Virus record (IMG/VR): IMGVR_UViG_2778261460_000004
Length of the DNA stretch: 47,736 bases
Source of the DNA: a virus
Lineage: Duplodnaviria; Heunggongvirae; Uroviricota; Caudoviricetes
Reading direction: 5' to 3' (one strand)
The notes beneath the pieces were generated by a model. It was not told the DNA's origin and searched no databases. It saw only the letters and a list, made by a program, of their open reading frames with translations. How positions within the stretch are numbered: the stretch's first letter is position 1; each line of letters starts with the position of its first letter. A program made the translations under genes and the position numbers. Shown here piece by piece: positions 1,659 through 47,736 of the stretch.

Positions 1659-4139
1659 TTAAAAATCAGCCTGACTCGGGATCAGTTTTTGTATCGTAGC
1701 TGTAACGTATTTTGCCTGGTGACGGGCGTCATCCAGTGCATTGTGGCGCACGCCTTCGAATGGAATAACGGTTCTGGCATCAAAGTCGATTGTTTTTCCC
1801 AGCTCAACGATTGTGCGTACATCGCGATCGTTGTAGTAGCGCCACGGGCAGGGGATGTCCAGACGTTCGTATGAGGTGCGCAAAATTGCGTTATCGAAAG
1901 TCGCACCATTACCCCATACCTGAACGAATTTTTCATCTGAGTATTCGTTGATGAACTCCCGAAACTGCGAAAGGGCATCCTTCAGTTTTACCTGGTCTGT
2001 TAAAATGGCAGCTCTGGCTTCACTGGACTGCTTCAGCCACCATTCGATGGTTCCACCGTCAGGAACAGCCCCTGTATTCATTGCGTCAGTCAGACTGATA
2101 ACGATATAAAATACTGGCCCGATTTCCCCTGTTTGTGGGTCGAAGAAAACCGCACCAATAACCACGATGGGCGCATTGGTGTTGGTTCCCATTGTTTCAA
2201 GGTCGATCATCAGGTGGTACCACACTCTGCTGGTGGATGTGATAACGTGATGACCGTTCACCGCAATTAAGGAATCTGCCGTCTCGCCAGTTTCATTATC
2301 GCTGGCGTGGTCCTGAGCGCTGCCAGCATTCTCCTTGTGTGGATGTTCAGCGCCTTCCATTTCCTCCGGATCATTTTCCTGAACTTCAACCTGATTCTCT
2401 TCATCGAATGTTTCCTGGTATGTTGCGTCGCCCATCACCGCACCACAATCAGGGCAGTTGCCGCCACCGAGCTGACCGCAGGCGGTGCAGACTTTTTCCG
2501 CTTCCTGTTGCGCTACCGGTTCGGATTGTTTCGTTTCTGGTTCGTTTTGTAACGCATTTGGGCTGTTTTGTTCCGCTTTTGGGTCGTTCTGTTCCGATTC
2601 TTGCTGGTTCTGGTTCACAGAATCGCGGGTTTCAATCCCCTTCACCCATTTCGGATCATTCGGGTCGCTAATCCCTGCAACAAATTCTCCGCGAGAGGCA
2701 GCAAGCAACTTATCGGCGTCAGGCTGGCTGATATTGGCTGCCTGCATAATTTTGTTTACTTCGTCAGCGGTAACTTTTACCGGCTCCGGTTGTGCGGTCG
2801 TGTCAGATGCACCAGTATTTTGTTGTGAACCTGAGTATGTGCCGTTTTTGCGGGCAAAATATTCTTCTTTCGTGATTTCAGTAGCCCCTGCAGCCAGCGC
2901 CTTATTCAGACCAGAAAGTTTGTTTGCACGACCATATTTTTCGCCATCCTTATCGGTGAAAAGGAAGTAGAACGGCCCCTCACGCTCTACAGATGGTTCA
3001 GTTTCCAGCGTGCTTTCATTTTTTTGGGTATCAGATACTTCAGTTTCCACTGCATCAGTTTGTGCTGCTGACGGCTGGAGAATATCAGTAGTGTTCTGGT
3101 CTGTTTCTTCATCCTCAAACACGCCCTTTGTCGCCAGGTATTCAGTGATGTATTTGTTCAGTGCCACGGGATCTTTGTGAATGTCGATCGGACGCTCACG
3201 GACAAGGCCAAAAATAGTCTGACGGTCGTAGCGAACGGCATCGGGTTGTTTGCGCATTGATGCGGAAATGCGCTTCCAGTCTTCGCGATCTTTGTCGATA
3301 ACTTCATTTTTTGCCCAACGATGGATGCTGCCGTCAATGTTTCCGGCATTAATATCGCCAGGCCACAGAGCGTAGGCCAGTTCTTCATCCAGCGTTTTCC
3401 ATGTCTGCTTGTATTCGCGACGAATGGCGGTAGTGGCGGGGTTGATTTTTCCTGCTGAGTTTTCAGTGTGCTGCCGGTTGACTCTGGCGCGGGCAAGATC
3501 AACAACAGACGTGTATTTCCCGGTTTCTTTGCGTTCGGCTTCGCGACGTTTTTTCCAGGTGCGTAATTCTGTCTGGATCTCAGGCCATTTTGCGCCCGGC
3601 TTACATTTATGTTTAACCCACCCGATGGCGAACAGCTTTAGTTCTGAATACATGACGTTAACTTCAGGCATTTTCATCAGTGCCTCAACGATATGCCCGT
3701 CGAATGTTGCCATGTCCTCCTGCAACAATTCCTGTGCACTAATCACCATATCAACGGTGATGTTTTCACATGTACCGAACTTAACCAGGACCGCGTTCTG
3801 TACTTCAAGGGACAGCTTGTCAAAATTGACGTTCATCGGATCGGATTCTGGTTCGACCGGAACAAAGGAAGCGCCTTCCTCATCCCAGCGGTTTTCCAGC
3901 ATATATTCGGTATCCCAGGAGTCGATGGCAGGGCGGGGCATGCCGGGTTTATCCTCGCAGACAAGAAATTTATAAGCGCAGTCCTGAGCAGCCGGATATT
4001 GCTCCAGGAATTGCCAGGTAAATTTGGCACGGGCGCGGCGTTCGTCGCCGGCTTCAATGGCAGTGGCTACAGCGACTGCACCTTCTTCCTTTATTGCCTG
4101 TTCGTCCGGAATGGCGGCGCAAATAAAGACTTTACTCAT
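1659..4139 (-). CDS. Large prophage exonuclease with C-terminal DnaQ-like DEDDh 3'-5' exonuclease domain (exodeoxyribonuclease VIII-like / YdfE-like)
   Basis: 826 aa. C-terminal motifs LMIDLETMG (Exo I, D-x-E), [12 protein letters not shown] (Exo II) and [13 protein letters not shown] (Exo III, H-x4-D). Central Cys cluster [16 protein letters not shown] (zinc-ribbon-like) and Gln/Glu-rich low-complexity linker. No RecT/Bet partner seen. Confidence 0.7.
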
Positions 4140-4219
4140 TTTGTTTTAACCTCATTACAGATTTAAGGGTGAACAAATCCCTGCCATTGCTGGCATATAA
4201 AAATGAAACCGGATATTAA

Positions 4220-4423
4220 TTACGGTGCTGTTTTAAGTCCTGCCGGGATTTCGTTATTGTCCATGTGAATAACTTTATCGACCGGATAGCAGTTACCGGG
4301 AATTTTTTGTTCCGCTGCGGCAGCCATGCATTCTTTCATTGAGTCATGTATGCCAATAACAAGATCGACTGGTTCGCCTGTATTAAGAAAAACTGTCAGA
4401 ACGAGTGCAAATGCTGTATTCAT
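4220..4423 (-). CDS. ydfD: YdfD-like small protein (reported lysis protein of Qin)
   Basis: 67-aa product from internal Met (MNTAFALVLTVFLNTGEPVDL...KIPGNCYPVDKVIH...), hydrophobic N-terminus; start overlaps dicB stop (ATGA); synteny dicF-dicB-ydfD as in Qin. Identity from memory, moderate. Confidence 0.55.
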   Translation of the reverse strand: MNTAFALVLTVFLNTGEPVDLVIGIHDSMKECMAAAAEQKIPGNCYPVDKVIHMDNNEIPAGLKTAP

Positions 4424-4608
4424 TGCCAGCGTCCTTTTTGCATCAGGCGTAAACGGGCCAGCATTGAAAGAATGCATATTTTATTTAATAACTCCCGTTC
4501 GTGTTTTCTCTTATTAATGGCATCTTCAGTAAATGCAGGGTTACTGATTCTGACACCAATTTCAAAACAACCTTCAGACGTATTGACGTTTGGTAATAAC
4601 GTTTCCAT
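4420..4608 (-). CDS. dicB: Cell division inhibitor DicB (MinC-activating)
   Basis: 62-aa product METLLPNVNTSEGCFEIGVRISNPAFTEDAINKRKHERELLNKICILSMLARLRLMQKGRWQ, near-identical to recalled K-12 DicB; directly downstream of the DicF sequence. Confidence 0.85.
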   Translation of the reverse strand: METLLPNVNTSEGCFEIGVRISNPAFTEDAINKRKHERELLNKICILSMLARLRLMQKGRWQ

Positions 4609-4777
4609 TATCGCGTCCTCAACAATGAATTTTGTGATGCGGTGCCTGGTGCCTCCAGGTGACGTTAACCAGTTAACAATTAACGCCGGATGCAGAGAAT
4701 CCACCCATAACACTGTTTTTGGTTTTAACTGTTCCGCGTGCGCTTAGCCGCATTCACCGCATCACAAAATTCACTTT

Positions 4778-4836
4778 AAAAAGGGCGGCAGAGCAGTCAC
4801 GAAGTAAAACTGATACCGCCAAACGTCACCAGAAAA
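4778..4836 (-). ncRNA. dicF: DicF small regulatory RNA (ftsZ-targeting sRNA) with 3' terminator-like hairpin
   Basis: Reverse complement of 4784-4836 reads TTTTCTGGTGACGTTTGGCGGTATCAGTTTTACTTCGTGACTGCTCTGCCGCCC followed by a T-run, matching the recalled 53-nt DicF with about 1 mismatch; position between ydfA-type genes and dicB matches the known dicB operon. Confidence 0.75.
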
Positions 4837-5171
4837 TTGATAACAGAGGGCGTTGCAGCGGGGTTGTCACTTAAGCGTATGGTCAACCTGACAACCCGGT
4901 GTCCTCAACGGGGAAGGGATAACCCCGCCATACTTACCGCCGCGCTATTTCGCGGATTGCCACAACCGGAAGCGCACGGTCGACGAAAATTTAACGACAG
5001 ACCATTTATGAACTAACAGCCTCGCCGTGCGCTTTCGCGTTATGCCCTGACTTTTCAGGGAAAATTAACCAGTGGTAAACTGGTGCTGCCGGATGCTCAC
5101 CCGTGTCCGGCGCACGCACTCCACCTAACCCGTGGAGAACTCCTTAATTACCAACCCATCAGGAGGGGGAA

Positions 5172-9333: not shown

Positions 9334-11337
9334 ATGATTATGAGTGAAAATGATACAACCCCAAAGAAGTCTACAAGCCAGATTAACAAAGCGGTATTCT
9401 TTACATCTGCTTTGCTAATTTTCCTTCTTGTCGCCTTTGCCGCCGTATTCCCGGATGTCGCCGACAAAAATTTTAAACTACTTCAGCAACAAATCTTCAC
9501 GAATGCCAGCTGGTTCTACATACTTGCTGTGGCCCTGATTTTACTGAGCGTCACGTTCCTTGGACTCTCACGTTACGGTGATATAAAGCTGGGCCCAGAC
9601 CATGCGCAGCCTGATTTCAGCTACCACTCCTGGTTCGCGATGCTTTTTTCGGCAGGGATGGGGATCGGCCTGATGTTCTTTGGCGTTGCCGAACCTGTGA
9701 TGCATTATCTTTCGCCACCTGTCGGCACTCCAGAGACCGTTGCGGCAGCGAAGGAAGCCATGCGCCTGACGTTCTTCCACTGGGGTCTGCACGCATGGGC
9801 AATTTATGCCATCGTGGCGCTGATTCTGGCCTTTTTCAGTTACCGTCACGGTCTGCCTTTAACGCTGCGTTCTGCGCTCTATCCCATTATCGGCGATCGC
9901 ATTTACGGGCCTATAGGCCACGCGGTTGATATCTTCGCCGTGATAGGCACTGTCTTTGGCGTTGCAACATCGCTGGGTTACGGTGTATTGCAGGTGAATG
10001 CCGGTTTGAACCATCTTTTCGGCGTGCCCATCAATGAAACGGTACAGGTCATTTTGATCGTGGTCATCACGGGGTTAGCGACGATTTCGGTGGTGTCCGG
10101 CCTGGACAAGGGAATACGCATCCTGTCTGAGCTTAATCTGGGCCTGGCGGTGTTGCTCCTGGCGCTGGTCTTGTGCCTGGGTCCCACTGTGCTTCTGCTG
10201 AAGTCATTTGTGGAAAATACGGGTGGTTATCTGTCGGAACTGGTGAGTAAAACGTTCAACCTTTACGCGTATGAACCCAAGTCGAGCAACTGGCTGGGGG
10301 GCTGGACATTATTATACTGGGGATGGTGGCTTTCATGGTCGCCGTTTGTAGGTATGTTCATTGCACGCGTTTCCCGCGGCAGGACAATTCGTGAGTTCGT
10401 GACTGGCGTGTTGTTTGTTCCCGCCGGCTTTACGCTCATGTGGATGACGGTGTTTGGAAACAGCGCCATCTATCTCATCATGAACCAGGGCGCCACTGAC
10501 CTCGCCAATACCGTTCAGCAGGATGTTGCGCTTGCCCTGTTTAATTTCCTGGAGCATTTCCCGTTCTCTTCCGTGCTGTCATTCATTGCAATGGCGATGG
10601 TCATCGTCTTCTTTGTAACGTCTGCTGATTCGGGGGCAATGGTTGTGGATACTCTGGCATCAGGTGGGGTGGCAAACACGCCCGTCTGGCAGCGAATTTT
10701 CTGGGCATCGCTCATGGGCGTTGTTGCTATTGCCCTGCTGATCGCAGGGGGGCTGAGTGCGTTGCAAACCGTAACGATAGCGAGTGCATTGCCCTTCTCA
10801 GTTATCTTATTAATATCCATATACGGACTGTTAAAAGCCCTGCGTCGGGATTTGACCAAGCGTGAAAGCCTTAGCATGGCGACTATTGCTCCTACGGCTG
10901 CACGTAACCCAATTCCCTGGCAGAGAAGGTTACGCAATATCGCGTATTTGCCGAAGCGCTCTCTTGTGAAACGTTTTATGGACGACATTATCCAACCCGC
11001 CATGACGCTGGTTCAGGAGGAACTTAACAAGCAGGGAACGATAAGCCACATCAGTGACGCCGCCGAGGATCGTATTCGCCTTGAAGTCGATTTGGGCAAC
11101 GAGCTGAATTATATATATGAAGTGAGGCTTCGCGGGTATAACTCACCGACCTTCGCGCTCGCTGCGCTGGATAATGATGAGCAGCAGAGTGAACAACATC
11201 GATATTATCGCGCTGAAGTCTATCTCAAAGAGGGCGGCCAAAATTATGATGTAATGGGCTGGAATCAGGAACAGCTGATTAATGACATACTGGACCAGTA
11301 CGAAAAACACCTGCACTTCCTGCATCTGGTTCGTTAA
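9334..11337 (+). CDS. BCCT-family transporter (BetT-like choline/glycine betaine transporter)
   Basis: 667 aa; multiple TM segments; BCCT signature WTLLYWGWWLSWSPFVGMFIARVSRGRTIREF; long cytoplasmic C-terminal extension as in BetT. Confidence 0.85.
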   Translation: MIMSENDTTPKKSTSQINKAVFFTSALLIFLLVAFAAVFPDVADKNFKLLQQQIFTNASWFYILAVALILLSVTFLGLSRYGDIKLGPDHAQPDFSYHSWFAMLFSAGMGIGLMFFGVAEPVMHYLSPPVGTPETVAAAKEAMRLTFFHWGLHAWAIYAIVALILAFFSYRHGLPLTLRSALYPIIGDRIYGPIGHAVDIFAVIGTVFGVATSLGYGVLQVNAGLNHLFGVPINETVQVILIVVITGLATISVVSGLDKGIRILSELNLGLAVLLLALVLCLGPTVLLLKSFVENTGGYLSELVSKTFNLYAYEPKSSNWLGGWTLLYWGWWLSWSPFVGMFIARVSRGRTIREFVTGVLFVPAGFTLMWMTVFGNSAIYLIMNQGATDLANTVQQDVALALFNFLEHFPFSSVLSFIAMAMVIVFFVTSADSGAMVVDTLASGGVANTPVWQRIFWASLMGVVAIALLIAGGLSALQTVTIASALPFSVILLISIYGLLKALRRDLTKRESLSMATIAPTAARNPIPWQRRLRNIAYLPKRSLVKRFMDDIIQPAMTLVQEELNKQGTISHISDAAEDRIRLEVDLGNELNYIYEVRLRGYNSPTFALAALDNDEQQSEQHRYYRAEVYLKEGGQNYDVMGWNQEQLINDILDQYEKHLHFLHLVR

Positions 11338-11385
11338 CAGCAACATGCCGCCACAGAGGCGGCATTTATTTATCCCGGCTGCAAT

Positions 11386-12678
11386 ATGAGGGAATGCAGA
11401 ATGATTTCACGCTGGAAATGGATGCTGAAGCAGACATTTAAAAAACTATGGTTCAGGGCAACGTTATTCGCAATTGTCGCAATAATAACGGCCCTTTTAT
11501 CAATTCTTTTTAAATCAATGATACCTGAGTCGGTTTCCGTGAAGGTTGGTGCGGAAGCAGTCGATAACATTCTGAACATACTGGCATCGAGTATGCTGGC
11601 CGTGACCACATTTTCGCTGAGCATCATGGTCACAGCCTACGGTTCAGCCACTACTAATGTGACTCCCAGAGCTACTCGTTTAGTTGTTGAAGACGTCACC
11701 ACACAAAATGTACTGGCCACCTTCATCGGTTCTTTTCTCTTCAGTCTGGTAGGGATTATTGCCCTCAATATGGGAGCTTATGGAGAAAGGGGGAGAGTCA
11801 TTTTATTCATTGTAACACTGGTTGTCATTGCCTTAATCCTCATCACATTGCTTCGCTGGATACAGCATTTGACCTCTCTGGGGAGGGTTGGTGAGACAAC
11901 GGCAAAAGTAGAACAGGCGGCCATCGAAACATTTATTGCGAGAGCAAGAAATCCCTGTCTCGGCGGATATCCATGGCTTGAGAACAATGAACAGCCGAAA
12001 GGAACGGTTGCAGTTTATCCGAAAAAGATTGGCTATGTTGAATATGTTGATATGGTGAAACTCAGCAAGCTGCTGACCAATGATCCCCGTCATGTATACC
12101 TCGTGGCGCAGCCGGGCAGTTTCATACATCCGTCCACGCCAGTTTTGTACCTGAGTCAGGGCCAGGAGTCATCAATCAGCACCGATTTACTTGAGACGAT
12201 TATTGTCTCGGATGTACGTTCATTTGCTCAGGACCCCCGATTTTGTCTTAGCGTCATGGCCGAAATAGCCTGCCGAGCCCTTTCCCCCGCAGTGAACGAT
12301 CCTGGAACCGCCATTGATGTCATTGGCAGAGGTGTACGTATACTTTCCGCTTACGCGCAGAATAAATCTGATGAAATAGAAGTGAAATATCCTTCTGTAC
12401 ATGTTGCACCACTTCAGAATAACGATCTACTTGAAGACTTTTTCTCACCTGTTGCGCGCGATGGTGCCAGTATGAGGGAAATTCAGATAAGGGTACTTAA
12501 AGGACTGTCGATGCTGAGTAAGGGTTGGCCTGGAATTTTTGCTGAAGCCGCACAAACCCTAGCATTTGAAACATTAGAGCATGCTACTCGTGCTGACCAT
12601 ATAGATTCTGACAGATATCTAATAAAATCAATTTATTATAATTTATTTAGTGGCGAAGATTCTAATAAAAAACCATAG
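11386..12678 (+). CDS. Membrane protein with N-terminal TM helices and large soluble domain (DUF2254-like)
   Basis: 430 aa; about 4-5 hydrophobic helices in first 170 aa; about 50 bp downstream of the BCCT gene on same strand. Family assignment from memory, moderate. Confidence 0.55.
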   Translation: MRECRMISRWKWMLKQTFKKLWFRATLFAIVAIITALLSILFKSMIPESVSVKVGAEAVDNILNILASSMLAVTTFSLSIMVTAYGSATTNVTPRATRLVVEDVTTQNVLATFIGSFLFSLVGIIALNMGAYGERGRVILFIVTLVVIALILITLLRWIQHLTSLGRVGETTAKVEQAAIETFIARARNPCLGGYPWLENNEQPKGTVAVYPKKIGYVEYVDMVKLSKLLTNDPRHVYLVAQPGSFIHPSTPVLYLSQGQESSISTDLLETIIVSDVRSFAQDPRFCLSVMAEIACRALSPAVNDPGTAIDVIGRGVRILSAYAQNKSDEIEVKYPSVHVAPLQNNDLLEDFFSPVARDGASMREIQIRVLKGLSMLSKGWPGIFAEAAQTLAFETLEHATRADHIDSDRYLIKSIYYNLFSGEDSNKKP

Positions 12679-19677: not shown

Positions 19678-19753
19678 GGCCCTTTAGCTCAGTGGTGAGA
19701 GCGAGCGACTCATAATCGCCAGGTCGCTGGTTCAAATCCAGCAAGGGCCACCA
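19678..19753 (+). tRNA. tRNA-Ile2-like (anticodon CAU; ileX/ileZ-like), could formally be Met
   Basis: 76 nt GGCCCTTTAGCTCAGTGG...CTCATAA anticodon loop...TTCAAATCC...AAGGGCCACCA; one mismatch in anticodon stem. Confidence 0.8.
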
Positions 19754-19754
19754 A

Positions 19755-19831
19755 TCGCCACTAGCTCATCAGGAAAGAGCGTCAACCCTTTAAGTTGAGT
19801 GTGCGAGGTTCGAGTCCCCGGTGGCGGTCCA
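19755..19831 (+). tRNA. tRNA-like gene, atypical (anticodon loop CCUUUAA, possibly Lys-UUU or a degenerate Arg tRNA)
   Basis: Acceptor stem TCGCCAC/GTGGCGG, T-loop TTCGAGT, 3' CCA present; C at position 33 and one T-stem mismatch make the assignment uncertain. Confidence 0.5.
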
Positions 19832-19833
19832 GT

Positions 19834-19909
<76 letters not shown>

Positions 19910-19912
19910 TAT

Positions 19913-19987
<75 letters not shown>

Positions 19988-39068: not shown

Positions 39069-42000
39069 ATGGGTAAAGGCAGCAGTAAGGGGCATACTCC
39101 GCGCGAAGCGAAGGACAACCTGAAGTCCACGCAGTTGCTGAGTGTGATCGATGCCATCAGCGAAGGGCCGGTTGAAGGTCCGGTGGATGGATTAAAAAGC
39201 GTGCTGCTGAACAGTACGCCGGTGCTGGACAGTGAGGGGAATACCAATATATCCGGCGTCACGGTGGTGTTCCGGGCCGGTGAGCAGGAGCAGACACCGC
39301 CGGAGGGATTTGAATCCTCCGGCTCCGAGACGGTGCTCGGTACAGAAGTGAAATATGACACGCCGATCACCCGGACCATCACGTCGGCAAACATTGACCG
39401 TCTGCGTTTTACTTTCGGCGTGCAGGCACTGGTGGAAACCACCTCAAAGGGGGACAGGAATCCATCGGAAGTCCGCCTGCTGGTTCAGATCCAGCGTAAT
39501 GGTGGCTGGGTGACGGAAAAAGACATCACCATTAAGGGCAAAACCACCTCGCAGTATCTGGCCTCGGTGGTGGTGGGTAACCTGCCGCCGCGCCCGTTCA
39601 ATATCCGGATGCGCAGGATGACGCCGGACAGCACCACAGACCAGCTGCAGAACAAAACGCTCTGGTCGTCATACACCGAAATCATCGATGTGAAACAGGG
39701 CTACCCGAACACGGCACTGGTCGGCGTGCAGGTGGATTCGGAGCAGTTCGGCAGCCAGCAGGTGAGCCGTAATTATCATCTGCGCGGGCGCATTCTGCAG
39801 GTGCCGTCGAACTATAACCCGCAGACGCGGCAATACAGCGGTATCTGGGACGGAACGTTTAAACCGGCATACAGCAACAACATGGCCTGGTGTATGTGGG
39901 ATATGCTGACCCATCCGCGCTACGGCATGGGGAAACGTCTTGGTGCAGCGGATGTAGATAAATGGGCGCTGTATGTCATCGGCCAGTACTGCGACCAGTC
40001 GGTGCCGGACGGCTTTGGCGGCACGGAGCCGCGCATCACCTGTAATGCGTACCTGACCACACAGCGCAAGGCGTGGGATGTGCTCAGTGATTTCTGCTCG
40101 GCGATGCGCTGTATGCCGGTATGGAACGGGCAGACGCTGACGTTCGTGCAGGACCGACCATCAGATAAGGTGTGGACCTATAACCGCAGTAATGTGGTGA
40201 TGCCGGATGATGGCGCGCCGTTCCGCTACAGCTTCAGCGCCCTGAAGGACCGCCATAATGCCGTTGAGGTGAACTGGATTGACCCGAACAACGGCTGGGA
40301 GACGGCGACAGAGCTTGTTGAAGATACGCAGGCCATTGCCCGTTACGGTCGTAACGTCACGAAGATGGATGCCTTTGGCTGTACCAGCCGGGGGCAGGCG
40401 CACCGCGCCGGGCTGTGGCTGATTAAAACGGAACTGCTGGAAACGCAGACCGTGGACTTCAGCGTGGGTGCGGAAGGGCTTCGCCATGTACCGGGGGATG
40501 TCATTGAAATCTGCGATGATGACTATGCGGGTATCAGCATCGGCGGGCGCGTGCTGGCGGTGAACAGCCAGACCCGGACGCTGACGCTCGACCGTGAAAT
40601 CACGCTGCCATCCTCCGGTACCACGCTGATAAGCCTGGTTGACGGAAGTGGCAATCCGGTCAGCGTGGAGGTTCAGTCCGTCACCGACGGCGTGAAGGTG
40701 AAAGTGAGCCGTGTTCCTGACGGCGTTGCCGGATACAGCGTGTGGGGGCTGAAGCTGCCGACGCTGCGCCAGCGCCTGTTCCGCTGTGTGAGTATCCGTG
40801 AGAACGACGACGGCACGTATGCCATCACTGCCGTGCAGCATGTGCCGGAAAAAGAGGCCATCGTGGATAACGGAGCGCACTTTGACGGCGACCAGAGCGG
40901 CACGGTGAATGGTGTCACGCCGCCAGCGGTGCAGCACCTGACCGCAGAAGTCACCGCAGACAGTGGGGAGTATCAGGTGCTGGCGCGCTGGGACACGCCG
41001 AAGGTGGTGAAGGGTGTGAGCTTTATGCTTCGCCTGACCGTGGCCGCCGATGACGGCAGTGAGCGGCTGGTCAGCACGGCCCGGACGACGGAAACCACTT
41101 ACCGCTTCACACAACTGGCGCTGGGGAACTACAGGCTGACAGTCCGGGCGGTAAATGCATGGGGACAGCAGGGCGATCCGGCGTCGGTATCGTTCCGGAT
41201 CGCCGCACCGGCAGCGCCGTCGCGGATTGAGCTGACGCCGGGCTATTTTCAGATAACCGCCACGCCGCATCTTGCCGTTTATGATCCGACGGTACAGTTT
41301 GAGTTCTGGTTCTCGGAAAAGCGGATTGCGGATATCAGGCAGGTTGAAACCACAGCCCGCTATCTTGGTACGGGGCTGTACTGGATAGCTGCCAGTATCA
41401 ATATCAAACCGGGCCATGATTATTACTTTTATATCCGCAGTGTGAACACCGTTGGCAAATCGGCATTCGTGGAGGCCGTCGGTCGGGCGAGCGATGATGC
41501 GGAAGGTTACCTGGATTTTTTCAAAGGCAAGATAACCGAATCCCATCTCGGCAAGGAGCTGCTGGAAAAAGTCGACCTGACGGAAGATAACGCCAGCAGA
41601 CTGGATCAGTTTTCGAAAGAGTGGAAAGACGCCAACGATAAATGGAATGCCATGTGGGGCGTCAAAATTGAGCAGACCGAAGACGGTAAGCATTATGTCG
41701 CGGGACTTGGCCTCAGCATGGAGGACACGGAGGAAGGCAAACTGAGCCAGTTCCTGGTTGCCGCTAACCGTATCGCGTTTATTGATCCGTCTAATGGCAA
41801 CACAAGACCAATGTTTGTTGGTCAGGGCGATCAGATATTCATGAACGACGTGTTCCTGAAACGCCTGACGGCTCCGACCATTACCAGCGGCGGTAATCCT
41901 CCGGCATTTTCCCTGACACCGGACGGGCGGCTGACGGCGAAAAATGCCGATATCAGCGGTAACGTGAATGCGAACTCCGGGACGCTCAACAACGTCACGA

Positions 42001-42461
42001 TTAATGAGAGCTGTACTATTAAGGGGATGCTTGATGCTAACCAGGTGCGTGGTGATTTTGTAAAAACGACAGGGCATCGATTTCCGCACCCCGGAGAATA
42101 CCCACAGGGTTCACTTACCGTTCATATTAAGGACGATCATGCCTTTGACAGGCAGATTATAATTCAACCAATCATGTACGGTGCACCACCATATTTTAGT
42201 AAAAATGATGGCGCTAATATCTACGATACCTGCAGATTAATTGTGCGCAAAAATGGCAATGTAATCTATGACAAATCCACTAGTGGTTCGAAAAGGACAA
42301 CAGTCGTGTACAGCAATATCATTGATATGCCAGTGGGGGACGGAGATGTAATATTAACATTTGAAGTTCAGTCGAGCGGCAGTGGAGAGCCCAGAACATG
42401 GATCAGTGATTTAATGGTCTCGGTAACGAAAAAAGCCGCATCCGGTATCAGTATCAGTTGA
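39069..42461 (+). CDS. J: Central tail fibre / host specificity protein J
   Basis: 1130 aa, lambda gpJ-like for about the first 990 aa; C-terminal about 140 aa (receptor-binding region) differs from my recollection of lambda J. Confidence 0.9.
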
Positions 42462-42530: not shown

Positions 42531-43130
42531 ATGCGTAAAGTTTGTGCAGCCATTTTGTCCGCAGCCATCTGTCTGGCCGTATCCGGTGCGCCTGCATGGG
42601 CGTCTGAACATCAGTCCACACTGAGCGCAGGGTATCTTCATGCCCGTACGAACGCTCCCGGCAGCGATAATCTGAACGGGATTAACGTGAAATACCGTTA
42701 TGAGTTTACGGACACGCTGGGGCTGATTACGTCCTTCAGTTATGCCAATGCTGAGGATGAGCAAAAAACGCACTACAGCGATACCCGCTGGCATGAAGAT
42801 TCCGTGCGTAACCGCTGGTTCAGCGTGATGGCAGGGCCGTCTGTGCGCGTGAATGAATGGTTCAGCGCGTATGCGATGGCGGGTATGGCTTACAGCCGTG
42901 TGTCGACCTTCTCCGGGGATTATCTCCGCATAACTGACAACAAGGGGAAAACGCACGATGTGCTGACCGGAAGTGATGACGGTCGCCACAGCAACACGTC
43001 TCTGGCGTGGGGAGCTGGCGTGCAGTTTAACCCGACCGAATCCGTGGCCATTGATATTGCTTATGAAGGCTCCGGCAGTGGTGACTGGCGCACTGCCGGT
43101 TTCATCGTGGGTGTCGGTTATAAGTTCTGA
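42531..43130 (+). CDS. lom: Outer membrane protein Lom (Ail/Lom family)
   Basis: 199 aa with signal peptide and beta-barrel pattern ending ...GFIVGVGYKF. Confidence 0.85.
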   Translation: MRKVCAAILSAAICLAVSGAPAWASEHQSTLSAGYLHARTNAPGSDNLNGINVKYRYEFTDTLGLITSFSYANAEDEQKTHYSDTRWHEDSVRNRWFSVMAGPSVRVNEWFSAYAMAGMAYSRVSTFSGDYLRITDNKGKTHDVLTGSDDGRHSNTSLAWGAGVQFNPTESVAIDIAYEGSGSGDWRTAGFIVGVGYKF

Positions 43131-43194
43131 TTAGCCAGGTAACACAGTGTTATGACAGCCCGCCGGTTCAGGCGGGCTTTTTTGTGGGGGGAAT

Positions 43195-45660
43195 ATGGCA
43201 GTACGGATTTCAGGTGTACTGAAAGATGGCGCAGGTAAGCCGATACAAAACTGCACCATTCAGCTAAAGGCCAGGCGCAACAGCACCACGGTGGTGGTGA
43301 ACACAGTGGCCTCAGAAAACCCGGATGAAGCCGGGCGTTACAGCATGGACGTTGAGTACGGTCAGTACAGCGTTATTCTGTTGGTGGAAGGATTCCCGCC
43401 GTCACATGCCGGGATCATCACCGTGTATGAAGATTCCCAACCCGGTACGCTGAATGATTTTCTCGGTGCCATGACGGAGGATGATGCCCGTCCTGAGGCA
43501 CTGCGCCGTTTTGAACTGATGGTGGAAGAGGTGGCGCGTAACGCGTCCGCAGTGGCACAGAACACGGCAGCCGCGAAGAAGTCAGCCAGCGATGCCAGCA
43601 CATCAGCCCGTGAGGCGGCAACCCATGCGACTGATGCTGCAGACTCAGCACGCGCAGCCAGAACGTCAGCCGGACAGGCCGCGACGTCGGCTCAGGAGGC
43701 TTTTTCCAGCGCAGGAACGGCATCAGCAAAGGCCACTGAAGCATCAAAAAGTGCTGCCGCAGCAGAGTCCTCAAAAAGCGCGGCGGCCACCAGTGCCGGT
43801 GCCGCGAAAACGTCAGAAACGAATGCTGCAGCGTCACAACAATCAGCAGCCACTTCTGCATCCACCGCGACTACGAAAGCGACAGAAGCTGCCACCTCAG
43901 CCCGGGATGCGTCGGCTTCAAAAGAGGCGGCAAAATCATCAGAAACGAACGCATCCTCGAGCGCCAGTAGTGCAGCCTCCTCGGCAACGGCGGCAGGAAA
44001 TTCCGCGAAGGCTGCAAAAACGTCCGAGACGAACGCTAAGTCTTCTGAAACGGCAGCGGAACAGAGTGCCTCCGCAGCAGCAGACTCAAAAACAGCGGCT
44101 GCATCATCTGCCAGTGCCGCGTCAACAAGTGCCGCGCAGGCATCAGCCAGTGCCACCGCCGCCGGAAAATCGGCAGAAAGTGCTGCATCATCCGCTTCAA
44201 CAGCCACAACGAATGCTGGCGAAGCCACTGAGCAGGCCACGGCAGCAGCGAGGTCTGCTTCCGCAGCGAAGACATCCGAGACGAACGCGAAAGCGTCGGA
44301 AACCCGTGCAGAATCCTCAAAAACGGCAGCGGCATCGTCCGCCAGTTCGGCGGCGTCATCGGCATCATCGGCATCTGCTTCAAAAGATGAGGCGACCAGA
44401 CAGGCGTCAGCAGCGAAGGGCAGCGCCACGACGGCATCCACGAAGGCGACAGAGGCAGCTGGCAGTGCGACAACTGCATCCCGGAGTAAAAGTGCGGCTG
44501 AATCAGCTGCAACCCGCGCGGAAGCTGCGGCTACACGGGCAGAGGATATAGCCTCTGCTGTGGCTCTTGAAGATGCGAGCACGACAAAAAAGGGAGTTGT
44601 AAAGCTCAGTAATAGTACTGACAGCACGTCACAAACAGAGGCAGCAACACCCCTGGCCGTCAAAAACGTAATGGATGCACTGAATGAAGTTTCATCTGCC
44701 ATTGGGGATGATCCGCAATTTGCGACAACAGTAATGAATGCGCTGGCAGGAAAGCAACCATTAAACGACATACTGTCATCATTGGCCGCCCTGGTTACAA
44801 CCGGGAACAAACTGGCCTATTTCAGCAGTAAAAATGTCATGTCGCTGGCGGATTTTTCAGCAACTGGTCGTTCGCTGATTAGCTGCGGTACAGAGTAAGA
44901 GGTTCTGGATTATCTGGGAATAAAAAGCACCGCCACACTGGAGGTACAGAAAGATATTTTCGACCGGGCTGATGGTGTACTGGCTTTGCCTGGTGCATTC
45001 GGATTTGGGGCATTAACTTCTGTGACGCAGTATTTTAGTGCCGGTAATGGGCCGTCAGAGTTTGCAGCCTGGTGTGTGCAGACCCCCCCTGGGCGGTATC
45101 GTGTGGAACAACGTTCAGGTTCGGATATTAATCCCATTATCCCGGATATTGTTTTTACCGGAATACTGGAAATCAAAGTCCCGGACAGAGTATCCGACCC
45201 GGATGATCATAAGAGAAAAGGAAAGCTGCTGACCTTTTACGGTCAGTATGGCGATGTGTATAAGACCATGCTTAAGCCAGGTTCTACCACCCCATCACTG
45301 GAAACCTGGAAGAATGGTTATATGAACAAAAGCGGACTTGCCGGGTTGCTAGGAAATGATACTGCTGAACCAGAAACTGGCAGTCTTATTCTGGCGGCGT
45401 ATTACGGGACATCAGACAGTGATAACAGTAGAACACTGCAGAGAGGAGCAATTTATCCGGGATCACGACTGGCACACGTAGAGTTGGCAGCTGATGCGGC
45501 CATCGGTGCAGGTGTTAAAGGTACTGCTCCTGTCTGCTATGTGCGAGGGTTATCATTTTCACACTCGCTACCGGGAGCATACAGATCGCTATCTGGCTCA
45601 CAAGGGGCGAGAGTTGACAGCAGCAAGGCTATTGTTGGAATGTTTGTCCGTATCGGGTGA
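43195..45660 (+). pseudogene. stf: Side tail fibre gene stf interrupted by an in-frame TAA (44896-44898); N-terminal ORF 43195-44898 (567 aa), C-terminal remainder 44899-45660 open in the same frame
   Basis: No other stop codon in frame for 254 codons after the TAA; downstream part lacks an ATG/SD (track start is TTG); N-terminal part is an Ala/Ser/Thr-rich repeat shaft. Confidence 0.6.
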
Positions 45661-45666
45661 TAGAAG

Positions 45667-46233
45667 ATGAAAATAAAAGATATAAAAAACCCTCAAAGTC
45701 TGGAAAGTGGGGCGATAGATTGTGAGGTATTATTTTTCAGCATGGACGAATATTTGCCTTATACAGCGACACAGGAAGACACAACCAGGACTGGCCGGCA
45801 AATCTGGCAGGAACTGCAAAGCGGCAAATGGGGCAAAATCGCCCCGTTCACCATCACGCCGGAACTTATTACGGCAGCGAAGGATGCCAAAAAGCGGGAA
45901 ATCGAGGCCTGGCGTGCAGAACAGGAGGCGAAGCCGTTCACGTTCGAATGGAACGGTCGCACCTGGAACGGTGGCCCCGACTCGATGGCGCGATTGTATC
46001 CGGCGGTGATGGCATCGAAGTCTGATACAGCACGTGACGTTACGGTGTGGGGCGATGCTGATAATCAGCAGGTGAAACTGTCGATGCCGGAACTGGAAGA
46101 GCTGGCGGCAGCAATGGCGCTGACACAGGTCGAGCGCAATGACGAGATTTATCGTCGTCAGCGTGAGATGAAGGAAGAACTGAATAATCTTGATGATTTA
46201 CGCTCAATCCGAGCGTTTGACGTTACGCAATAA
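45667..46233 (+). CDS. tfa: Tail fibre assembly protein Tfa
   Basis: 188 aa; typical Tfa position and size immediately after stf. Confidence 0.8.
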   Translation: MKIKDIKNPQSLESGAIDCEVLFFSMDEYLPYTATQEDTTRTGRQIWQELQSGKWGKIAPFTITPELITAAKDAKKREIEAWRAEQEAKPFTFEWNGRTWNGGPDSMARLYPAVMASKSDTARDVTVWGDADNQQVKLSMPELEELAAAMALTQVERNDEIYRRQREMKEELNNLDDLRSIRAFDVTQ

Positions 46234-46452
46234 AAAAACACTGATATGCCAGCCCCTTGTAAAAATATTGAACAGGGACGCTTTGAGATGAATTGGATTT
46301 ACATGGGGCACCTTGGGGCATATATGGGACATAAAAAGGCCTCAGACAAACAGCAAAATCGAGTTCAGGAGTTTTTAGAAAAAATACAACCATCTGAAAA
46401 AACTTAGAAAACGACCAAAAATCCACAGGATGGCAAAAAATATCTATGAATT

Positions 46453-47736
46453 ATGGATTTCCAGTTATATTCGCTCGGCGCAGCGTTAGTGTTTCATGAA
46501 ATATTTTTTCCTGAATCATCAACGGCAATGGCGTTAATTTTGGCAATGGGAACCTACGGTGCAGGTTATGTGGCGCGTATTGTCGGAGCATTTATTTTCG
46601 GCAAAATGGGCGACAGAATAGGGCGTAAAAAAGTGCTCTTTATTACCATCACCATGATGGGGATCTGTACCACCTTAATTGGTGTGTTACCGACCTATGC
46701 ACAGATTGGTGTTTTTGCCCCCATCTTGCTGGTGACGCTGCGTATTATTCAGGGGTTGGGTGCAGGTGCGGAAATTTCCGGTGCCGGTACGATGCTGGCG
46801 GAATATGCACCAAAAGGTAAGCGCGGAATTATCTCCTCATTTGTAGCTATGGGAACTAACTGCGGAACCTTGAGCGCAACGGCAATCTGGGCCTTTATGT
46901 TCTTCATTCTCAGTAAAGAGGAACTGCTGGCGTGGGGATGGCGTATACCGTTCCTGGCGAGCGTTGTCGTGATGGTCTTTGCTATCTGGTTACGTATGAA
47001 TCTGAAAGAAAGCCCGGTCTTTGAGAAGGTTAATGACAGCAACCAACCCACAGCAAAACCTGCACCTGCTGGTAGCATGTTCCAGAGCAAATCCTTCTGG
47101 CTGGCAACAGGGCTGCGTTTTGGTCAGGCGGGTAACTCCGGGTTAATTCAGACTTTCCTTGCAGGCTATTTAGTGCAGACGTTATTGTTTAACAAAGCAA
47201 TTCCAACAGATGCATTGATGATTAGTTCGATTCTCGGCTTTATGACCATTCCGTTCCTTGGTTGGTTATCCGATAAAATTGGTCGCCGGATCCCGTATAT
47301 TATTATGAATACCTCCGCGATTGTGCTGGCATGGCCAATGCTTTCTATCATTGTAGATAAAAGCTATGCCCCGAGCACCATTATGGTTGCACTGATTGTG
47401 ATTCATAACTGTGCGGTGCTGGGATTATTTGCTCTGGAAAACATTACCATGGCAGAAATGTTCGGCTGTAAAAACCGCTTTACCCGGATGGCTATTTCTA
47501 AAGAAATTGGTGGTCTTATCGCTTCCGGTTTTGGTCCTATCCTGGCGGGTATTTTCTGCACCATGACGGAATCCTGGTATCCGATCGCCATTATGATCAT
47601 GGCATATTCAGTGATTGGTTTAATCTCTGCGCTGAAAATGCCAGAGGTGAAAGACCGTGATTTAAGTGCGCTGGAAGACGCTGCGGAAGATCAACCGCGT
47701 GTTGTAAGAGCTGCGCAACCTTCCAGAAGTCTGTAA
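46453..47736 (+). CDS. ydfJ: MFS transporter YdfJ (metabolite:H+ symporter family), 5'-truncated by prophage insertion
   Basis: 427 aa with GKMGDRIGRKK loop motif; begins inside the first TM helices of a normal MFS protein; matches recalled K-12 YdfJ, which is annotated as interrupted by Qin. Confidence 0.8.
   Translation: MDFQLYSLGAALVFHEIFFPESSTAMALILAMGTYGAGYVARIVGAFIFGKMGDRIGRKKVLFITITMMGICTTLIGVLPTYAQIGVFAPILLVTLRIIQGLGAGAEISGAGTMLAEYAPKGKRGIISSFVAMGTNCGTLSATAIWAFMFFILSKEELLAWGWRIPFLASVVVMVFAIWLRMNLKESPVFEKVNDSNQPTAKPAPAGSMFQSKSFWLATGLRFGQAGNSGLIQTFLAGYLVQTLLFNKAIPTDALMISSILGFMTIPFLGWLSDKIGRRIPYIIMNTSAIVLAWPMLSIIVDKSYAPSTIMVALIVIHNCAVLGLFALENITMAEMFGCKNRFTRMAISKEIGGLIASGFGPILAGIFCTMTESWYPIAIMIMAYSVIGLISALKMPEVKDRDLSALEDAAEDQPRVVRAAQPSRSL

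What the first reader, a model, noticed from the sequence alone, without database searches (positions are those of the whole stretch)
43195..45660. Side tail fibre gene split by a single in-frame TAA
After the TAA at 44896-44898 the same frame stays open for 254 more codons with no ATG/SD, so stf is either a nonsense pseudogene or needs read-through. Lambda PaPa is a known precedent for a lab-acquired stf defect (a frameshift). The shaft region contains at least four copies of an AKTSETNA(K/A)SSE-type repeat that could drive recombinational length variation.
Basis: seen in the sequence. Interest (0 to 1): 0.4.

Follow-up and report, generated by a model that had tools for sequence, protein, structure and literature searches.

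The report
Prophage tail-fibre gene with nonsense mutation
A side tail fibre gene of a lambda-like prophage in E. coli has been cut short by a single C-to-T change that turned a glutamine codon into a stop; nearly identical prophages in other strains carry the intact gene, so this is an ordinary strain-specific knockout, like the one in laboratory lambda.

Summary
The two parts are one gene. Every homologue, from 35% to 99.9% identity, is a single ORF across this point. No in-frame start after the stop has a Shine-Dalgarno sequence, and no plus-strand promoter lies in the interval. Five independent assemblies carry the same prophage gene at the same ydfJ site, differ by 1-3 nt in 3.1 kb, and all have CAA (Gln) and an uninterrupted 821-codon stf. 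A metagenome contig also has CAA. The TAA is therefore a derived, private C>T ochre mutation (Q568*). It removes the 253-aa distal, presumably receptor-binding, module. All other late genes are full length. The prophage's four tRNAs include no suppressor, and the stop is not conserved, so programmed read-through is not supported. The only other record with TAA is the window's own source assembly (GCA_002485695.1), so a base-call error cannot be formally excluded. The four shaft repeats are real. They show no length variation in 60 sampled E. coli copies, but one is exactly a mosaic joint. One curiosity: the metagenome copy carries a different nonsense mutation (W626*). Low interest; known kind.

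The parts
43195..45660 (+). Complete stf (side tail fibre) reading frame: 821 sense codons in the intact sister alleles, interrupted here at codon 568
   Evidence: The intact 821-aa ORF in L004 is at 2529-4994.
43195..43596 (+). N-terminal virion-attachment (collar) domain, Pfam PF08400 phage_tail_N, aa 1-134
   Evidence: E 2.8e-72. PDB 9e7m 'Tail fiber protein' matches aa 1-94 at E 3.8e-51.
43801..44288 (+). Ala/Ser-rich shaft segment with four AAK(T/S)SETNA repeat copies (43801-43826, 43927-43952, 44011-44036, 44263-44288)
   Evidence: Copy 3 is exactly the mosaic joint with the 1,101-aa Stf of strain GPEC1054.
44545..44688 (+). Conserved tail-fibre motif (…KKGVVKLSNSTDSTSQTEAATPLAVK…) shared with Mu gpS. 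The common E. coli Stf module ends just downstream of it, at about 44651.
   Evidence: 5yvq/8ju3, query aa 451-498. (matches end at query 1415-1457).
44896..44898 (+). Premature ochre stop TAA (Q568*). The derived base is T at 44896; the ancestral codon is CAA.
   Evidence: CAA in L002, L004, L005, L006, L007 and L008; TAA only in the window and in its own source assembly (L003/L010).
44899..45660 (+). Orphaned 3' part of stf: 253 codons plus TGA, encoding the distal (presumed receptor-binding) module. It has no start signal of its own.
   Evidence: No Pfam hit. The model (pLDDT 77) resembles the distal parts of the Goslar and Av-05 tail fibres.
45667..46233 (+). Intact downstream gene in the tfa position (188 aa, DUF4376), the presumed fibre-assembly partner of the lost module
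   Evidence: PF14301. The same gene pair occurs in phage Av-05. The identical protein is found in 9 contigs.
43157..43178 (+). Terminator-like hairpin plus T-run between lom and stf
42531..43130 (+). lom (Ail/Lom outer-membrane protein), upstream neighbour
46453..47736 (+). Host ydfJ fragment. It marks the right end of the prophage (Qin-type integration site).
   Evidence: 99.4% identical to E. coli ydfJ

Best explanation
The region is one gene, the side tail fibre gene stf of an otherwise intact-looking lambdoid prophage inserted in E. coli ydfJ. In this strain a single C-to-T transition at 44896 changed Gln-568 (CAA) into an ochre stop (TAA). Translation therefore ends after 567 residues. 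The product keeps the N-terminal collar domain and most of the shaft but lacks the last 253 residues, the distal module that in related fibres forms the tip and works with the downstream assembly protein. By analogy with lambda PaPa, virions from this prophage would carry no functional side fibres and would adsorb through the central J fibre only. Shown here: the stop, its derived state, the unity of the gene, the lack of restart signals, and the lack of a suppressor tRNA. Inferred: loss of fibre assembly, and viability of the fibreless phage.
For: The TAA is in frame and 253 open codons follow it. Homologues at 35-62% identity, including the phage Av-05 fibre and Salmonella and E. coli prophage fibres, align on both sides of the stop as single ORFs. 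L004-L008 are four NCBI assemblies and one Logan assembly. They carry the same gene at the same ydfJ site with 1-3 differences in 3,110 nt, all have CAA at codon 568, and none has an internal stop. L005 and L007 lie next to a different ydfJ allele (36 differences), so CAA occurs in at least two host backgrounds and is ancestral. Metagenome contig L002 also has CAA. There is no usable SD-like motif before any in-frame start after the stop and no plus-strand promoter. The prophage tRNAs are Met-CAT, Lys-TTT, Thr-TGT and Gly-TCC, none a suppressor. All other late genes from Nu1 to J, plus lom and tfa, are called at normal lengths. In lambda, a truncating stf frameshift abolishes side fibres, which are non-essential (PMC12617516), and Stf-loss mutants arise readily (PMC2762979).
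Against: The TAA is seen only in the window and in GCA_002485695.1 contig NNVM01000013.1. That contig is base-for-base identical to the window over 22,580 nt and is evidently its source, so there is no independent read-level confirmation. No expression or virion data exist. Whether the 567-aa fragment is degraded or attaches as a stub is not known.
Confidence: 0.88

Rival explanations
1. Sequencing or assembly error: the strain really has CAA like its sisters, and the stop is a consensus base-call mistake.
For: The only record with TAA is the window's own source assembly. The exact 567-aa product is on record nowhere else. The window differs from L008 by this single base in 3,319 nt.
Against: Single-base substitution errors in assembly consensus sequences are rare (general knowledge). 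The site is not in a homopolymer or repeat (context GGTACAGAGTAAGAGGTT). The window carries a second private substitution in the same gene (A43882), which suggests real divergence in this lineage.
Confidence: 0.08
2. Functional read-through or suppression: the UAA is decoded at a useful rate by a host or phage suppressor tRNA, or by near-cognate tRNAs, so full-length Stf is still made.
For: The downstream frame is perfectly preserved. The prophage carries a tRNA-Lys(UUU), which is near-cognate to UAA.
Against: The preserved frame is explained by how recent the mutation is: 1-3 differences in 3.1 kb from the intact sisters. The stop is absent from all relatives, so nothing has evolved around it. 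No suppressor anticodon occurs among the four prophage tRNAs. UAA is the most efficiently terminated stop in E. coli, and a trimeric fibre needs three full-length chains (general knowledge).
Confidence: 0.02
3. Two genuine genes: an N-terminal shaft protein and a separately translated C-terminal tip protein.
For: Gene callers on the source assembly emitted a 212-aa ORF starting at GTG 45022.
Against: No usable SD motif precedes any in-frame start, and the first ATG is 124 codons downstream. There is no promoter. Every homologue is one ORF. The only short homologue, P0002, is truncated by a contig end.
Confidence: 0.01
4. The nonsense allele is real and was positively selected: fibre loss was advantageous, for example through slower adsorption in structured habitats, rather than being neutral decay in the lysogen.
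For: Both window-private changes across 7,070 nt compared with L004 and L006 are non-synonymous changes in stf. The related metagenome copy L002 has an independent nonsense mutation, W626*. That makes 2 nonsense among 11 substitutions in the C-terminal module, P about 0.05 under neutrality. Lambda Stf-loss mutants are strongly selected in biofilm-like conditions (PMC2762979).
Against: The numbers are tiny and P about 0.05 is borderline. The L002 stop could be a metagenome assembly error. At least five copies are intact. The tape-measure protein of the window is not identical in the sisters, so the prophages are not isogenic outside the compared 7 kb.
Confidence: 0.12

Closest known systems
Lambda PaPa stf (orf-401/orf-314) versus Ur-lambda stf
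   Same: It is the same gene, in the same position (J-lom-stf-tfa), with the same N-terminal domain (PF08400; 86% nt identity over the first ~905 nt; PDB 9e7m match). In both cases a point lesion truncates Stf before the distal receptor-binding part while tfa stays intact, and the side fibres are dispensable (PMC12617516).
   Different: The lesion here is a nonsense substitution (CAA>TAA), not a 1-bp frameshift. It sits in a natural draft-genome prophage, not a laboratory stock. The lost tip is a different and much rarer module: it has no megablast match in 5,426 complete E. coli genomes, and its partner is a DUF4376 protein (Pfam PF14301), not lambda's Tfa.
Intact sister alleles of the same prophage (GCA_002942665.1, GCA_015518505.1, GCA_036626555.1, GCA_038076055.1, Logan SRR14679120)
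   Same: They are 99.9% identical over lom-stf-tfa and lie at the same ydfJ integration site.
   Different: They have CAA at codon 568 and Ser at codon 230, giving an 821-aa Stf.
Tail fibre Av05_0076 plus Av05_0077 of lytic phage Av-05 (Vequintavirinae)
   Same: The distal module and the downstream DUF4376-type partner are homologous: 69% nt identity over 315 nt spanning the stop site, plus matching protein motifs such as VLDYLGIK and LPGAFGFG.
   Different: It is a 416-aa fibre without the lambdoid PF08400 N-terminus or the Ala/Ser shaft, it is one uninterrupted ORF, and it belongs to a myovirus.
Experimentally evolved lambda Stf-loss ('GP') mutants
   Same: Stf function is lost spontaneously through small lesions within stf (PMC2762979).
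   Different: Most of those were indels at homonucleotide runs. Here the change is a base substitution outside the gene's A6 and C7 runs.

Membership tests
Lambdoid side tail fibre Stf | N-terminal 'prophage tail fibre N-terminal' domain (PF08400) | tested here: met
   aa 1-134, E 2.8e-72, full profile coverage. PDB 9e7m tail fibre protein matches aa 1-94.
Lambdoid side tail fibre Stf | Gene position at the end of the late operon: J - lom - stf - tfa | tested here: met
   J at 39069-42461, lom at 42531-43130, stf at 43195-45660, and a tfa-position gene at 45667-46233.
Lambdoid side tail fibre Stf | One continuous ORF encoding attachment domain, shaft and distal tip | tested here: not met
   The window has TAA at codon 568. 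The feature is met in the sister alleles L004-L008. The window copy is therefore a disrupted allele of a member, not a functional member.
Lambdoid side tail fibre Stf | Trimeric fibres visible on virions that accelerate adsorption | not testable with these tools
   Needs induction, electron microscopy and adsorption assays.
Nonsense (ochre) pseudogene allele | Premature stop where close orthologues have a sense codon one base change away | tested here: met
   TAA versus CAA in six related sequences.
Nonsense (ochre) pseudogene allele | Sequence downstream of the stop remains homologous and in frame, without start signals of its own | tested here: met
Nonsense (ochre) pseudogene allele | The stop is real in the organism's DNA and not a base-call error | not testable with these tools
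   The only record with TAA is the source assembly itself. No reads are available.
Programmed stop-codon read-through / recoding | Stop codon conserved among homologues | tested here: not met
   It is absent from all homologues, from 35% to 99.9% identity.
Programmed stop-codon read-through / recoding | Cognate suppressor tRNA supplied by the element | tested here: not met
   The four prophage tRNAs have anticodons CAT, TTT, TGT and TCC.
Tail fibre assembly partner (tfa position), DUF4376 type | Small gene immediately 3' of the fibre gene that co-varies with the fibre's distal module | tested here: met
   PF14301. The same pairing occurs in Av-05 and in L009 next to the 62%-identical module. 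Chaperone activity itself was not tested.

The most novel reading that the evidence does not exclude
Fibre loss in this prophage family is recurrent and adaptive in nature. Two independent nonsense alleles in the same rare distal module (Q568* here, W626* in metagenome contig L002), and the fact that both window-private substitutions fall in stf, would be a natural counterpart of the laboratory selection that produced lambda PaPa and of the 'hypermutable stf' idea.
Probability: 0.12. Interest if true: 0.35.

Novelty: new member of a known kind. Interest (0 to 1): 0.12.

Why it matters
It matters little beyond annotation. The stf interval of this genome should be annotated as one pseudogene (Q568*), not as the fragment ORFs emitted by gene callers. 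Phage induced from this strain should be expected to lack side fibres, and so to differ in adsorption rate, and perhaps host range, from its intact sisters. The intact/broken sister pair differs by 1-2 bases, which makes it a ready-made natural isogenic pair for testing what this rare, structurally uncharacterised distal fibre module binds. The independent stop in a metagenome copy hints weakly that Stf loss recurs in nature.

Tried and rejected
1. A megablast of the C-terminal module against 5,426 complete E. coli genomes found nothing, so intact copies had to be found another way. 2. The search for related loci on the species-representative genomes found no relative. 3. An exact-pattern scan of IMG/VR found nothing. 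4. A look-up of the exact 567-aa product found nothing on record. 5. The large protein search returned no hit above 64% identity and missed the 821-aa sister proteins. They were recovered only through the exact Tfa look-up. 6. P0002 looked like a possible stand-alone C-terminal gene, but it runs off a contig end. 7. P0010 is a lambda-V-like N-terminus fused to the module on a 2-kb Logan contig. I judged it a chimeric assembly and did not pursue it. 8. Fetching the sisters' full prophages through the tape-measure protein failed, because that exact protein occurs only in the source assembly. A whole-prophage test of whether stf is specifically targeted was therefore not possible. 9. The Foldseek search of the PDB gave no significant match for the lost module. 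10. A literature search for the assembly accession found nothing. 11. I considered Dcm-site deamination as the cause. I rejected it by inspection: the mutated C is in GAGCAAGAG, which is not CCWGG.

Full report
OBSERVATION. The window is a lambdoid prophage. It runs from the integrase at 23-1318 on the minus strand, through the Nu1-to-J late operon, to lom (42531-43130), stf (43195-45660) and a tfa-position gene (45667-46233). It is inserted in E. coli ydfJ: the flank 46240-47736 is 99.4% identical to ydfJ of many E. coli genomes. An ORF starts at ATG 43195 and ends at TAA 44896-44898 after 567 codons. The same frame then stays open for 253 further sense codons to the TGA at 45658-45660. The chance of 253 stop-free codons is about 5e-6. 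After the stop, the first in-frame ATG is codon 692. The earlier in-frame TTG and GTG codons, and indeed every in-frame start candidate in the first 247 codons after the stop, have no Shine-Dalgarno-like motif 5-15 nt upstream; only ATG 45640, six codons before the end, has a weak AAGG. The sigma-70 consensus scan finds no plus-strand promoter between 43100 and 46300. Four AAK(T/S)SETNA copies begin at aa 203, 245, 273 and 357. At the DNA level they are 26-nt copies, 77-81% identical to the reference copy.

ONE GENE OR TWO. The first 1,415-1,457 nt of stf form a very common module, about 92% identical in 4,754 of 5,426 complete E. coli genomes and in many lambdoid phages, including lambda itself. 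In contrast, the segment 44600-45700 has no megablast match in any complete E. coli genome. Its best phage match is the tail fibre gene of the lytic Vequintavirinae phage Av-05: 69% identity over 315 nt that span the stop position. The Av-05 fibre is a single 416-aa ORF. It aligns on both sides of the stop (GRVIIGQDSKTGVLDYLGIK versus GRSLISCGTE*EVLDYLGIK) and is followed by a homologue of the window's downstream gene. A search of 5.8 billion protein clusters found 941 relatives. The 14 that I aligned, at 34-62% identity, come from E. coli, Salmonella and Citrobacter prophages. Every one that reaches the site reads through it as one ORF. The single short hit, P0002 (238 aa), is truncated by the end of its contig. 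The hypothesis of two separate genes is therefore rejected.

ANCESTRAL STATE. An exact-pattern scan with the codon wild-carded found metagenome contig L002 (Ga0079226_10091243). From 44430 onward it is 99.2% identical to the window, and it has CAA at the site. A look-up of the exact 188-aa downstream protein found nine contigs, all at the same ydfJ site. In L004, L005, L006, L007 and L008 (four NCBI assemblies and one Logan assembly), the lom-stf-tfa interval differs from the window by 1-3 nt in 3,110. Codon 568 is CAA in all five, and where the whole gene is present (L004-L007) stf is an uninterrupted 821-codon ORF; L008, which starts inside the gene at window 44418, is open over the 413 codons it holds. 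L005 and L007 carry a different ydfJ allele, with 36 substitutions in the ydfJ flank. The intact allele therefore exists in at least two host backgrounds. TAA is thus a derived, private C>T transition, Q568*. The window also carries one other private change, A43882, which gives Thr-230 where all the others have Ser.

CAVEAT ON INDEPENDENCE. L003 and L010 (GCA_002485695.1, contig NNVM01000013.1) are identical to the window at all 22,580 compared positions. This assembly is evidently the window's source, so its TAA is not independent confirmation. No reads are available, and a base-call error cannot be formally excluded. I give that about 8%: the site is in neither a homopolymer nor a repeat, and the lineage has a second private substitution nearby.

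WHAT IS LOST AND THE LIKELY CONSEQUENCE. The 567-aa product retains the PF08400 N-terminal domain at aa 1-134. This domain matches the solved 'Tail fiber protein' chain of PDB 9e7m over residues 1-94. [quoted passage not shown] The product also retains the Ala/Ser-rich shaft and the conserved KGxVxLS…AATPxAVK motif shared with Mu gpS. It lacks the last 253 residues. That module has no Pfam family and no significant match among solved structures. An AlphaFold2 model (mean pLDDT 77) is mostly beta-strand with a few helices, and its best matches are the tail fibre proteins of phage Goslar (E 5.5e-11) and phage Av-05 (E 3.8e-8) in the viral structure library. It always travels with a DUF4376 gene in the tfa position. 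From established knowledge of lambda Stf/Tfa and T4 gp37/gp38, I infer that this module is the receptor-binding tip, whose folding depends on the downstream partner. Without it, no functional fibre should assemble. [quoted passage not shown] All other late genes in the source contig are called at normal lengths. The phage could therefore still be viable, using J alone. These consequences are inferred, not shown.

READ-THROUGH. The prophage's tRNA cluster (19678-19987) encodes Met-CAT, Lys-TTT, Thr-TGT and Gly-TCC, with no suppressor. The stop is absent from every relative, so no read-through mechanism can have evolved around it. The intact downstream frame is explained by how recent the mutation is. 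I give functional read-through about 2%.

THE REPEATS. I sampled 60 records at even steps through 4,228 E. coli matches to the shaft. In every one the subject span equals the query span, so there are no indels. Several matches do begin at window 43800, the start of repeat copy 1, or end at 44036, the end of copy 3. The 1,101-aa Stf of strain GPEC1054 is collinear with the window up to the last residue of the third AAKTSETNA and unrelated immediately after it. The repeats therefore mark module-exchange joints, consistent with the known mosaicism of tail fibre genes, and do not act as in-place length variators.

A MINOR CURIOSITY. L002 has CAA at codon 568 but carries its own stop, TGG>TGA at codon 626 (window 45072). 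Counting all substitutions among copies in the C-terminal module, 2 of 11 are nonsense. With about 3.3% of possible mutations being nonsense, P is about 0.05 under strict neutrality. Lambda Stf-loss mutants are strongly selected in structured environments (PMC2762979), so recurrent adaptive loss is conceivable. However, the sample is tiny, and the L002 stop could be a metagenome assembly error.

VERDICT. This is a real, ordinary feature: a strain-specific ochre allele (Q568*) of a lambdoid stf gene, whose intact form exists in sister prophages. It is a new instance of a well-known kind of lesion and is of low interest.

Noticed in passing
L002:1225-1227 (equivalent to window 45070-45072): The near-identical metagenome copy has CAA at codon 568 but carries a different in-frame stop, W626* (TGG>TGA). 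This is a second, independent disruption of the same rare distal module, or else a metagenome assembly error.
   Followed up: partly
window 43882: A second window-private substitution in stf: ACA (Thr-230) where all sisters and L002 have TCA (Ser). Together with Q568* these are the only differences from L004 and L006 across about 7 kb.
   Followed up: partly
window 44011-44036 (and 43801-43826): The third AAKTSETNA repeat copy is exactly the point where this Stf and the 1,101-aa Stf of E. coli GPEC1054 (L021) stop being collinear. Matches on two E. coli plasmids start exactly at the first copy. The repeats behave as mosaic recombination joints.
   Followed up: partly
window 44700-46233; L001:2697-4516: The distal fibre module and its DUF4376 partner gene are shared as a pair between this temperate lambdoid prophage and the lytic Vequintavirinae phage Av-05. 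This is evidence of fibre-tip exchange between very different phage types.
   Followed up: partly
window 19678-19987: A cluster of four prophage tRNA genes (Met-CAT, Lys-TTT, Thr-TGT, Gly-TCC), separated by only 1-3 nt.
   Followed up: no
window 9334-12678: Cargo genes inside the prophage: a 667-aa BCCT-family transporter and a 430-aa ORF at the position of a DUF2254 protein. The identical BCCT protein occurs in more than 500 collection blocks, mostly in Rac-type prophage contexts (recET, kilR, sieB neighbours).
   Followed up: no
P0010 (Logan contig, 2,052 nt): A 387-aa ORF that fuses a lambda V-like tail-tube N-terminus (PF16461) to the last ~200 residues of this fibre module at 64% identity. 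It is probably a chimeric assembly or a large deletion.
   Followed up: no
P0032, P0056, P0113: Tail-fibre homologues that NCBI records name 'shikimate transporter, partial'. This looks like an annotation error, possibly spill-over from the MFS transporter gene (ydfJ) next to such prophages.
   Followed up: no
window 45083-45089 and 44586-44591: A C7 run and an A6 run inside stf. Homonucleotide runs are where most spontaneous lambda stf knockouts arise (PMC2762979). Both are in frame here.
   Followed up: no
window 43692-44702 (-) and 45022-45660 (+): The source assembly's gene calls in the stf interval are a 336-aa minus-strand ORF and a 212-aa ORF starting at GTG 45022. Both are artefacts of calling genes on a pseudogene in an Ala/Ser-rich region that is open in several frames.
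   Followed up: yes
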